A DNA stretch of 64,000 bases, from NCBI RefSeq assembly GCF_003018255.1, contig NZ_CP027440.1. The stretch is one strand, 5' to 3'. A program made the translations under genes and the position numbers. Each line of letters begins with the position of its first letter. The stretch's first letter is position 1. This document shows positions 1 through 59,665 of this stretch, one piece after another. Below the pieces are notes generated by a model. The model was given only the letters and a program-made list of their open reading frames with translations, ran no database searches and had not been told where the DNA came from. This DNA comes from Escherichia coli. Its GTDB lineage: Bacteria; Pseudomonadota; Gammaproteobacteria; Enterobacterales; Enterobacteriaceae.

Positions 1-296
1 GCTGCCTGCTAATCGTCGATCTAAAAGTGGGCAAATTCAGCTATAGCGATGCCGGACAGATGAATATGTATCTCAACTACGCCAAAGAGCACTGGACACT
101 ACCGGATGAAAATCCGCCCATCGGTCTGGTTCTCTGTGCAGAGAAAGGAGCCGGCGAAGCGCATTATGCACTGGCTGGTTTGCCTAACACCGTTCTGGCG
201 AGTGAATATAAGATGCAACTACCTGATGAAAAACGACTCGCGGATGAACTCGTTCGAACACAGGCGGTGTTAGAGGAAGGCTATAGACGCCGTTAA
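1..296 (+). CDS. yhcG: 3' fragment of YhcG-like protein (DUF1016 / PDDEXK nuclease-like family); 5' end lies outside the window
   Basis: Track ORF 27..296 is open to the window edge; C-terminal sequence recognised as E. coli YhcG; sits immediately upstream of yhcH-nan as in K-12. Confidence 0.6.
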   Translation, partial: CLLIVDLKVGKFSYSDAGQMNMYLNYAKEHWTLPDENPPIGLVLCAEKGAGEAHYALAGLPNTVLASEYKMQLPDEKRLADELVRTQAVLEEGYRRR

Positions 297-355
297 TTTC
301 AGCGGTTTCGAATTCTCCAGACACTGTCTGGAGAATCTTTAAAACGAACTAAGTT

Positions 356-1688
<1,333 letters not shown>

Positions 1689-54319: not shown

Positions 54320-54439
54320 ATGTCTGGCAGTTCCCTACTCTCGCATGGGGAGACCCCACACTACCATCGGCGCTACGGCGTTTCACTTCTGAGTTCGGCA
54401 TGGGGTCAGGTGGGACCACCGCGCTACTGCCGCCAGACA
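54320..54439 (-). rRNA. rrfF: 5S rRNA, distal copy of rrnD
   Basis: 120-nt reverse-complement match to E. coli 5S rRNA. Confidence 0.9.
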
Positions 54440-54476
54440 AATTCTTTTCTAATCTGCCGAACTTTAACCTAAAAAG

Positions 54477-54552
54477 TGGTGCTGATACCCAGAGTCGAAC
54501 TGGGGACCTCACCCTTACCAAGGGTGCGCTCTACCAACTGAGCCATATCAGC
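54477..54552 (-). tRNA. thrV: tRNA-Thr (anticodon GGU)
   Basis: 76-nt reverse-complement match to E. coli tRNA-Thr; CCA end present. Confidence 0.9.
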
Positions 54553-54564
54553 ACGCTAAATTTG

Positions 54565-54684
54565 ATGCCTGGCAGTTCCCTACTCTCGCATGGGGAGACC
54601 CCACACTACCATCGGCGCTACGGCGTTTCACTTCTGAGTTCGGCATGGGGTCAGGTGGGACCACCGCGCTAAGGCCGCCAGGCA
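54565..54684 (-). rRNA. rrfD: 5S rRNA, proximal copy of rrnD
   Basis: 120-nt reverse-complement match to E. coli 5S rRNA. Confidence 0.9.
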
Positions 54685-54781
54685 AATTCTGTTTTATCAA
54701 CACGTCTCGTTATGACATGTCGATTTAATCTGTATCAGGCTGAAAATCTTCTCTCATCCGCCAAAACATCTTCGGCGTTGT

Positions 54782-57686
<2,905 letters not shown>

Positions 57687-57860
57687 TCACAACCCGAAGA
57701 TGTTTCACTTCAGAGTTGCGAAAATTTGAGAGACTCACGAACAACTTTCGTTGTTCAGTGTTTCAATTTTCAGCTTGATCCAGATTTTTAAAGAGCAAAA
57801 CTTCGCAGTGAACCTTTGCAGGTACACTCTGAAGTATTTTTTATTTAATCACTACAGAGA

Positions 57861-57936
57861 TGGTGGAGCTATGCGGGATCGAACCGCAGACCTCCTGCGT
57901 GCAAAGCAGGCGCTCTCCCAGCTGAGCTATAGCCCC
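57861..57936 (-). tRNA. alaU: tRNA-Ala (anticodon UGC), spacer tRNA
   Basis: 76-nt reverse-complement match to E. coli tRNA-Ala. Confidence 0.9.
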
Positions 57937-57978
57937 ATAACATGTAGTTAAAACCTCTTCAAATTTGCCGTGCAAATT

Positions 57979-58055
<77 letters not shown>

Positions 58056-58123
58056 GTAGAGGTTTTACTGCTCATTTTCATCAGACAATCTGTGTGAGCA
58101 CTGCAAAGTACGCTTCTTTAAGG

Positions 58124-59665
<1,542 letters not shown>

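What the first reader, a model, noticed from the sequence alone, without database searches (positions are those of the whole stretch)
1..296. Nuclease-fold gene fragment at the window edge, abutting the nan operon
Only the C-terminal roughly 98 codons of a YhcG-family protein (DUF1016, predicted PDDEXK-type nuclease fold) are visible. Proteins of this family sometimes occur in defence or mobile contexts, but nothing can be concluded from the fragment, and the flanking sequence lies outside the window.
Basis: inference. Interest (0 to 1): 0.2.

Follow-up and report, generated by a model that had tools for sequence, protein, structure and literature searches.

The report
Tail end of yhcG nuclease gene
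Window 1-296 is the last 97 codons of yhcG, a known but uncharacterised E. coli gene for a predicted DNA-cutting enzyme that lies between housekeeping genes; this is ordinary, except that the whole gene family carries a small DNA palindrome inside its coding sequence, and one extra copy lies just after the gene in the window.

Summary

I also found something I saw described nowhere. DUF1016 genes across bacteria and archaea carry an in-frame, almost perfect 25-27-nt palindrome in the linker. It is present in 77 of 87 genes, the arms covary, and synonymous shuffling destroys it. E. coli has 1-4 tandem copies plus one after the stop codon (window 312-336). Several structural-variant breakpoints at this locus lie at the copies. 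The function of the palindrome is unknown.

The parts
3..296 (+). 3' end of yhcG: codons 279-375 of 375 plus the TAA stop. This is the C-terminal half of the PD-(D/E)xK (YhcG_C) domain.
   Evidence: Translation. Pfam PF06250 at E 2.6e-23. RefSeq annotation of strains identical over window 1-900. Full-length gene at L001:11169-12296.
18..26 (+). Codons D284-L285-K286, the (D/E)xK part of the catalytic motif, on strand beta-3 of the model.
   Evidence: K286 is invariant and D284 is conserved in at least 90% of the 86-sequence alignment A4. The model has a strand at 279-286. The family motif E-D-E(I/L/V)K is described in PMC1189080.
57..71 (+). Codons Q297-Y301 (GQMNMY), a conserved helix motif that follows the catalytic strand.
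   Evidence: Y301 is invariant and Q297 is conserved in at least 90% of A4. The model has a helix at 292-309.
312..336 (.). Extragenic copy of the yhcG family palindrome: attctccagac-ACT-gtctggagaat, with 11-bp arms and a 3-nt centre. It lies in the 59-nt spacer between the convergent genes yhcG and nanQ. It is in frame with yhcG and would encode ILQTLSGE if the stop codon were read through.
   Evidence: Sequence. It is the only exact CAGAC-N3-GTCTG in the 64-kb window. RNA fold z-score -4.5. It has the same architecture as the three in-gene copies at L001 11470-11576. The read-through allele P0023 translates it. The consensus scan does not call it an intrinsic terminator.

Best explanation
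Shown: window 3-296 is the 3' end of E. coli yhcG. The full protein (375 aa) has three parts: an alpha-helical N-terminal DUF1016_N domain, a disordered linker at about residues 97-124, and a C-terminal PD-(D/E)xK nuclease domain. The active-site set E245 / D269 / D284-x-K286 is complete. The gene is an old resident of the gltBD-nan interval in Enterobacteriaceae. It is under purifying selection but is dispensable.

Inferred: YhcG is a Mg2+-dependent DNA endonuclease of the NucS / restriction-enzyme type. It probably acts as a dimer. The helical N-terminal part would supply DNA recognition and the C-terminal domain would cut. Its relatives are embedded in restriction-modification operons, so the most likely role is a stand-alone or back-up nuclease against foreign or aberrant DNA, retained here as a chromosomal singleton.

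Shown: the gene family carries an in-frame, almost purely Watson-Crick palindrome in the linker codons, of the form ATT-N4-A-S-R-C-A-N-T-G-Y-S-T-N4-AAT. E. coli adds tandem copies and one copy just after the stop codon, inside the window.

Inferred, at roughly 35-40%: this palindrome is a DNA-level cis element tied to the nuclease itself, either a binding or autoregulatory site or a structure-forming site. As a side effect it makes the locus prone to rearrangement.

For: Palindrome: it is present in 56 of 80 diverse genes by a strict criterion and in 77 of 87 by a relaxed one, and always in the same linker. Observed count is 70 against a mean of 6.3 in synonymous-codon shuffles. Covariation score is 0.70 against 0.16 in shuffles. 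G.T mismatches make up about 1.6% of stem positions, and the centre triplet is symmetric in 87 of 111 cases. It is locus-specific in E. coli. Copies within one gene differ in the middle of the arms, yet each copy stays self-complementary.
Against: No biochemical activity has been reported for any DUF1016 protein in the papers I could search. The one PDC-S02 representative that was tested gave no protection against T4, T5 or T7. In this window the gene has no partner genes and no mobile or defence neighbours. Hu et al. 2009 instead link yhcG genetically to replication. The JNE23-011 allele has W81 where at least 90% of the family has Gly, and the window does not cover that codon, so activity of this particular allele is uncertain. 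For the palindrome, no experiment or computation here shows that YhcG binds it. Arm symmetry could be maintained by template-switch correction rather than by selection on pairing.
Confidence: 0.8

Rival explanations
1. YhcG is a housekeeping DNA-repair or replication-intermediate nuclease, a NucS/Hjc-like enzyme that resolves branched or mismatched DNA. On this view it is not a defence nuclease, which explains why it sits among core genes.
For: In Hu et al. 2009, deletion of yhcG is synthetically lethal with hypomorphic dnaB, dnaN and parE alleles. The closest solved fold is the mismatch/branch nuclease NucS. Position is conserved over long evolutionary distances and dN/dS is low.
Against: The gene is absent from 959 of 5426 complete E. 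coli genomes and truncated in many more, which is unusual for a repair gene. Relatives are typically inside RM operons or mobile elements. The same Hu et al. network links it to HsdMRS, McrABC and integrases.
Confidence: 0.25
2. In this strain the gene is a decaying relic with no current function. The locus is simply a rearrangement hot spot, and the ORF is intact only by recent descent.
For: Loss, IS1 disruption, replacement of the C-terminal half and island insertion are all frequent between gltD and nanQ. The JNE23-011 allele has W81 at a nearly invariant Gly.
Against: The ORF is intact, with all catalytic residues, in at least 3347 genomes. dN/dS is 0.15 within E. coli and 0.09 between Salmonella and Citrobacter.
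Confidence: 0.1
3. The palindrome acts as an RNA hairpin in the yhcG mRNA, for example in processing, stability or translational pausing, or as a protein-binding RNA like the repeats of type III toxin-antitoxin systems. The downstream copy would then be a terminator shared with nanQ.
For: The predicted RNA hairpins are strong, with z-scores of -9.1 and -4.5. The stems covary. The tandem 39-nt repeats recall the ToxI-type RNA repeats (my recollection, not a test). The downstream copy lies between convergent genes.
Against: G.U pairs are almost absent: G.T makes up about 1.6% of stem positions and is rarer than A.C. The symmetry runs through the 'loop' down to a single central base in 87 of 111 cases, and an RNA loop would not need that. 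There is no T-run and no terminator call. There is no Rfam match.
Confidence: 0.2
4. The palindrome has no function. It is a quasi-palindrome kept perfect by intramolecular template switching in a linker that tolerates any peptide, and it is inherited from the family ancestor.
For: The linker is disordered and variable in length. The arms are symmetric even at positions that differ between copies in the same gene. Copy number changes easily.
Against: It persists at the same codon position in members of 36-45% protein identity across many phyla and archaea, where synonymous sites are saturated. Outer and inner bases are conserved: A-T at arm position 11 in 105 of 111, C-G at position 1 in 89 of 111. 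Palindromes are deletion-prone, so they should be lost without selection.
Confidence: 0.2

Closest known systems
E. coli K-12 YhcG (b3220), Pfam PF06250 YhcG_C + PF17761 DUF1016_N, COG4804
   Same: Same gene at the same locus. It differs from K-12 by dN 0.015 and dS 0.10, has the same two domains, the same length of 375 aa and the same three linker repeats.
   Different: The strain matching the window lacks the gltF-yhcADEF fimbrial island that separates gltD from yhcG in K-12, and it lacks the palindrome copy that follows gltD in K-12.
NucS/EndoMS (DUF91) mismatch- and branch-specific endonuclease (PDB 2vld, 5gkj)
   Different: Only about 14% identity over 130 residues. NucS has a different N-terminal DNA-binding domain and a PCNA-binding tail. 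No mismatch or flap activity is known for YhcG.
PADLOC candidate defence system PDC-S02 (single-gene DUF1016) and RM-embedded DUF1016 genes
   Same: Full-length HMM match at E 9e-135. Distant members sit between the mod and res genes of a type III system and next to MmeI/Eco57I-like genes.
   Different: This copy has no RM or defence neighbours. PDC-S02 is a candidate only, and the one tested homologue did not protect against T4, T5 or T7.
parS sites lying inside parB/spo0J coding sequences (analogy only, for the palindrome)
   Different: Binding of YhcG to its palindrome is untested. parS has a fixed sequence, whereas here the middle of the arms varies freely but stays complementary.
REP/BIME and other dispersed bacterial palindromes; integron attC
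   Same: These are also short imperfect palindromes able to form hairpins, and they are associated with rearrangement breakpoints.
   Different: The yhcG palindrome is not dispersed. There is one copy in the 64-kb window and at most 6 matching places per E. coli genome, all examined ones at this locus. It has no REP GTAG head, none of the attC consensus boxes as I recall them, and it lies inside a coding sequence in a fixed frame.

Membership tests
Pfam PF06250 YhcG_C / PF17761 DUF1016_N (YhcG family) | Score above the curated gathering threshold for both domain models | tested here: met
   Full protein: 191.9 bits (cut-off 32.5) and 141.5 bits (cut-off 32.8). Window fragment alone: 83 bits for YhcG_C.
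PD-(D/E)xK nuclease superfamily | Catalytic residues E ... D ... (D/E)xK on the alpha-beta-beta-beta-alpha-beta core | tested here: met
   E245, D269 and K286 are invariant and D284 is conserved in at least 90% of 86 sequences. They fall on helix 228-246 and strands 264-274 and 279-286 of the model. D284 and K286 are at window 18-26.
PD-(D/E)xK nuclease superfamily | Restriction-endonuclease-like fold | tested here: met
PD-(D/E)xK nuclease superfamily | Metal-dependent phosphodiester cleavage | not testable with these tools
   No biochemical report was found in the searchable library.
PADLOC PDC-S02 (candidate anti-phage system) | Match to the PDC-S02 HMMs | tested here: met
   PDLC04807 at E 9e-135, residues 8-370.
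PADLOC PDC-S02 (candidate anti-phage system) | Location in a defence island or mobile element | tested here: not met
   The neighbours are gltB and gltD upstream and nanQKETAR downstream. Synteny is conserved in Salmonella and C. koseri.
PADLOC PDC-S02 (candidate anti-phage system) | Protection against phage | not testable with these tools
   One cold-seep PDC-S02 gene was tested in E. coli B against T4, T5 and T7 and was not among the protective systems.
Dispersed repeat families (REP/BIME-like, MITE-like), considered for the palindrome | Many copies scattered over the genome | tested here: not met
   One exact core in 64 kb. Median 2 and maximum 6 matching places per E. coli genome.
Intrinsic terminator, considered for the copy at window 312-336 | G+C-rich stem followed by a T-run | tested here: not met
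   The consensus scan does not call it. The stem is followed by CTTTAAAA on the + strand and TCGAAACC on the - strand.
Any Rfam RNA family, considered for the palindrome | Covariance-model match | tested here: not met
   Only sub-threshold chance hits at E 0.4 or higher. Nothing at gathering score near the locus.

The most novel reading that the evidence does not exclude
The in-frame palindrome is an obligatory DNA-level cis element of DUF1016/YhcG nuclease genes, conserved from bacteria to archaea. On this reading it is the site at which the encoded dimeric nuclease binds. The purpose could be autoregulation, 'parking' of a latent nuclease, or self-marking. Alternatively it could be a hairpin- or cruciform-forming site that drives cassette exchange and rearrangement at these loci. 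In either case the linker peptide would be merely its translation.
Probability: 0.35. Interest if true: 0.7.

Novelty: already known. Interest (0 to 1): 0.35.

Why it matters
The fragment itself changes nothing. It is the end of an annotated E. coli gene, and its context argues against a defence island at this site.

The follow-up may matter more. DUF1016 is a very large family without a known function: 23,741 clusters at 50% identity reach E 0.001 or better. It is routinely counted as a candidate defence gene. A nucleic-acid element conserved inside its coding sequence gives a concrete experimental starting point, namely binding and cleavage assays and synonymous recoding. It could also explain why the gltD-nanQ interval of E. 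coli is so variable.

Tried and rejected
- NCBIfam gave no match.
- A sequence search of the PDB gave only chance RES-toxin hits at E about 1.
- Rfam gave no family for the hairpins.
- Tandem Repeats Finder did not report the 39-nt repeats, because the copies are too diverged.
- The pattern with a 4-nt centre was wrong and was corrected to 3 nt.
- I rejected the idea that the palindrome is a dispersed REP/MITE-type repeat, because it is locus-specific.
- A canonical intrinsic terminator is not supported.
- The search for related loci with the very diverse alignment A2 failed for lack of a conserved stretch. The tighter alignment A3 worked.
- In the viral-contig scan for the E. coli-type palindrome, 25 of 38 contigs carry it inside DUF1016 genes or remnants. 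By my rough estimate, the roughly 12 stand-alone hits are about what chance hairpins would give, so there is no evidence for phage target sites.
- Pfam found nothing in the foreign ORFs that replace parts of yhcG in L002 and L010. The L002 ORF is annotated as a transposase without support from Pfam.
- The mismatch-type test (G.T against A.C) gave no sign of a strand-specific RNA structure.
- No paper in the library links yhcG or DUF1016 to a palindrome, hairpin or inverted repeat.

Full report
**1. The observation**

The + strand is open in frame 3 from the window edge to a TAA at 294-296, giving 97 sense codons (CLLIVDLKVGKFSYSDAGQMNMY...EEGYRRR*). This fragment alone matches Pfam PF06250 (YhcG PDDEXK nuclease domain) at E 2.6e-23 over profile positions 72-156 of 157. 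The window is E. coli chromosome. Positions 1-900 are 100% identical to two RefSeq genomes, and 5411 of 5426 complete genomes have a match, annotated yhcG / nanQ / nanK. Downstream on the opposite strand lie nanQ (356-820), nanK, nanE, nanT, nanA and nanR.

**2. The part outside the window**

Strain JNE23-011 differs from the window at 2 of the first 12,900 positions and was fetched as L001 (window position = L001 position - 12000). Its yhcG is L001:11169-12296 and encodes 375 aa. Directly upstream are gltB and gltD (glutamate synthase), then yhcC and arcB. There are no partner genes and no mobile or defence genes. K-12 has the gltF-yhcADEF fimbrial cluster, with an IS5, inserted between gltD and yhcG. 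This strain does not.

**3. The protein**

- Pfam finds DUF1016_N at residues 19-184 (E 2.4e-41) and YhcG_C at 208-360 (E 8e-57).
- PADLOC's candidate system PDC-S02 matches at E 9e-135.
- NCBIfam has no model for it, and no solved structure is detectable by sequence.
- The family is huge: 23,741 clusters at 50% identity reach E 0.001 or better.
- In an 86-sequence alignment spanning 35-99% identity, E245, D269, K286 and Y301 are invariant, and D284 and Q297 are conserved in at least 90%. This is the E-D-(D/E)xK signature that Kosinski et al. described for YhcG (PMC1189080).
- D284-L-K286 is at window 18-26 and Q297-Y301 at window 57-71. The fragment therefore contains half of the active site.
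- An AlphaFold2 model (mean pLDDT 78) places these residues on the canonical helix/strand/strand elements. It predicts a long helical N-terminal part and a disordered linker at about residues 97-124.

**4. Context and evolution**

The arrangement gltBD-yhcG-nanQKET is the same in Salmonella (with codBA inserted after yhcG) and in Citrobacter koseri. Orthologues of 77-82% identity exist in Kluyvera, Pseudocitrobacter and others. dN/dS is 0.15 against K-12 and 0.09 between Salmonella and Citrobacter. This copy is thus an old, vertically inherited gene under purifying selection.

It is nevertheless dispensable. Only 4467 of 5426 E. coli genomes have any yhcG DNA, and 3347 have at least 80% of the query. 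The variants I examined are:
- an N-terminal half followed by a foreign ORF (L002);
- an IS1 followed by the C-terminal half (L003);
- a 41-codon remnant behind a DUF5691/AAA/DUF5682/VWA island (L010);
- complete absence in Nissle 1917 (L009).

Distant relatives do sit in defence contexts. One lies between the methylase and the ResIII helicase-nuclease of a type III RM operon (L012). Another lies beside an MmeI/Eco57I-like gene (L013). The literature reports type I RM loci, ICEs and Tn7 cargo.

Functional data are thin and point in two directions. Hu et al. 2009 found that yhcG deletion is synthetically lethal with dnaB, dnaN and parE hypomorphs, and linked the protein to HsdMRS, McrABC and integrases. 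One PDC-S02 gene tested against T4, T5 and T7 did not protect.

**5. The palindrome in E. coli**

While reading the full gene I noticed three near-perfect palindromes 39 nt (13 codons) apart in the linker: aattcGCCAGAC-agt-GTCTGGCgaatt, gaattcCGCAGAC-acc-ATCTGCAgaattc and agatttGGCAGAC-gct-GTCTGCCaaatct. They encode IRQTVSGEL, IPQTPSAEF and IWQTLSAKS. A fourth copy follows the stop codon, at window 312-336 (attctccagac-ACT-gtctggagaat).

- The predicted hairpins are far more stable than shuffled sequence, with z-scores of -9.1 and -4.5.
- The copies differ in the middle of the arms (cgc/gcg, tgg/cca, ctc/gag, ctg/cag) yet each stays self-complementary, while the encoded residues change.
- The element is not a dispersed repeat. 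There is one exact core in the 64-kb window and at most 6 matching places per E. coli genome.
- There is no Rfam family and no terminator call.
- E. coli alleles have 1 to 4 copies, giving proteins of 349, 362, 375 and 382 aa.
- A read-through allele (391 aa) translates the downstream copy in frame as ILQTLSGES.

**6. The palindrome is family-wide**

Salmonella and C. koseri each have one copy at the same codons, with different but complementary arms. Four distant members (36-59% identity) have it too, for example aattgtgcaccc-ACT-gggcgcacaatt, encoding IVHPLGAQF, and attccctacac-AGT-gtgtagagaat, encoding IPYTVCRES.

A scan of one genome per species returned 80 diverse loci from many bacterial phyla and from archaea. 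The results on these loci were as follows.
- 56 of 80 genes have a palindrome with a 3-nt centre, at least 9 pairs and at most 1 mismatch. Nearly all lie 230-450 nt into the gene. Density is 0.83 per kb inside the gene against 0.12 per kb in the flanks.
- Shuffling synonymous codons within each gene leaves a mean of 6.3 palindromes (maximum 17) against 70 observed. The protein sequence therefore does not explain the palindrome.
- With a criterion of at least 9 of 11 pairs, 77 of 87 genes carry 111 copies in the linker.
- 103 of the 111 copies are in the same reading frame, starting at an Ile codon ATT and ending in xAA-T.
- The outer A-T/T-A pairs and the inner C-A-N-T-G are conserved. The four middle pairs vary freely but stay complementary.
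- G.T mismatches are 19 and A.C mismatches are 35 of about 1221 stem positions.
- The centre triplet is itself symmetric in 87 of 111 cases.
- On a 77-sequence alignment the covariation score is 0.70 against 0.16 in shuffles, with 249 double-change cells against 73. These sequences were picked for being palindromic, so the fraction of genes carrying the element and the shuffle control are the less biased statistics.
- In viral contigs, 25 of 38 exact matches to the E. coli-type pattern lie in DUF1016 genes or their remnants. By my rough estimate, the rest are compatible with chance hairpins.

**7. What the palindrome might be**

The near absence of wobble pairs, and symmetry running down to a single central base, argue for a DNA-level element rather than an mRNA hairpin. 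Complementarity at positions that differ between copies of one gene argues for intrastrand pairing (hairpin or cruciform), or for continual template-switch correction, rather than simple reading by a dimeric protein. The only constant companion of the element across all contexts is the DUF1016 gene itself. That makes the encoded nuclease, or universal host machinery, the likeliest partner.

A few members have extra copies at gene borders. One is 20 nt upstream of the start codon (L057), two are further upstream (L019, L023), and one is just after the stop codon (L074), as in E. coli.

In E. coli several independent rearrangements have an end at a copy:
- The Nissle deletion leaves a single palindrome whose left flank is the K-12 gltD-side flank and whose right flank resembles the K-12 nanQ-side flank.
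- The L002 replacement starts right after the third copy.
- The IS1 in L003 abuts a copy on each side.
- In K-12 the fimbrial island begins next to a copy that follows gltD.

This suggests fragility, but I did not test it against a null model. I rate a functional cis element tied to the nuclease at about 0.35-0.4, an RNA role at about 0.2, and a non-functional palindrome that maintains itself at about 0.2.

**8. Verdict**

The finding as given is correct and ordinary. It is the 3' end of the annotated, uncharacterised gene yhcG, with an intact active site, in a housekeeping neighbourhood.

The conserved in-frame palindrome is described in no paper I could search. One copy of it lies at window 312-336. 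It is the only feature here that a specialist might find surprising, and it raises my score modestly.

Noticed in passing
window 312-336; L001 11470-11576; L016-L095 (linker of each DUF1016 gene): A family-wide, in-frame palindrome with arms of about 11 bp and almost purely Watson-Crick pairing sits in the linker codons of DUF1016/YhcG genes across bacteria and archaea. E. coli has 1-4 tandem copies 39 nt apart plus a copy after the stop codon. I found no description of it in the searchable literature.
   Followed up: yes
L004 941-953 (K-12, just after gltD); L009 5001-5026 (Nissle 1917); L002 4568-4590; L003 3212-3240 and 4004-4016: The gltD-nanQ interval is a hot spot of structural variation in E. 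coli, and several breakpoints lie at palindrome copies. Nissle 1917 has only 67 nt between gltD and nanQ, with one palindrome whose flanks match those of the two outer K-12 copies. 5371 of 5426 genomes keep at least one match to the 36-nt palindrome query, although only 4467 keep any yhcG DNA.
   Followed up: partly
L109 4686-4864 and 6008-6186 (IMG/VR contig 2534681820_000001): Two 179-nt direct repeats each contain two palindromes plus a short DUF1016 remnant (..NFYEIEA..). They flank a two-gene cassette (176 aa and 126 aa) near a tyrosine integrase, which looks like a cassette inserted into or duplicated with a decayed DUF1016 linker.
   Followed up: partly
L001 11409-11411 (codon 81 of yhcG, outside the window): The allele of the near-identical strain JNE23-011 has Trp where at least 90% of the family, and other E. 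coli, have Gly (KRGFS changed to KRWFS). This may impair the protein. It is unknown whether the window's own strain shares the change.
   Followed up: no
L010 1-4959 (strain 23CRST013, upstream of the yhcG remnant): A different island (DUF5691, an ATP-binding protein, DUF5682 and a VWA-domain protein) lies upstream of a 41-codon yhcG_N remnant in this strain. Two ORFs without Pfam matches lie between the remnant and nanQ.
   Followed up: no
L002 4677-4982: A 101-aa ORF annotated 'transposase' in RefSeq replaces the C-terminal half of yhcG in about 15% of the E. coli rows sampled. It has no Pfam match, so the annotation is unsupported.
   Followed up: partly
window 54322-59665: A complete rRNA operon on the - strand (16S, tRNA-Ile, tRNA-Ala, 23S, 5S, tRNA-Thr and a second 5S), with an Rfam StyR-44 match at 57694-57793 just upstream of the 23S gene. 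This is ordinary for E. coli.
   Followed up: no
upstream of yhcG, outside the window (literature): A putative stationary-phase antisense RNA, G0-10703, is reported to overlap the yhcG 5' region by 128 bp (PMC7967276).
   Followed up: no
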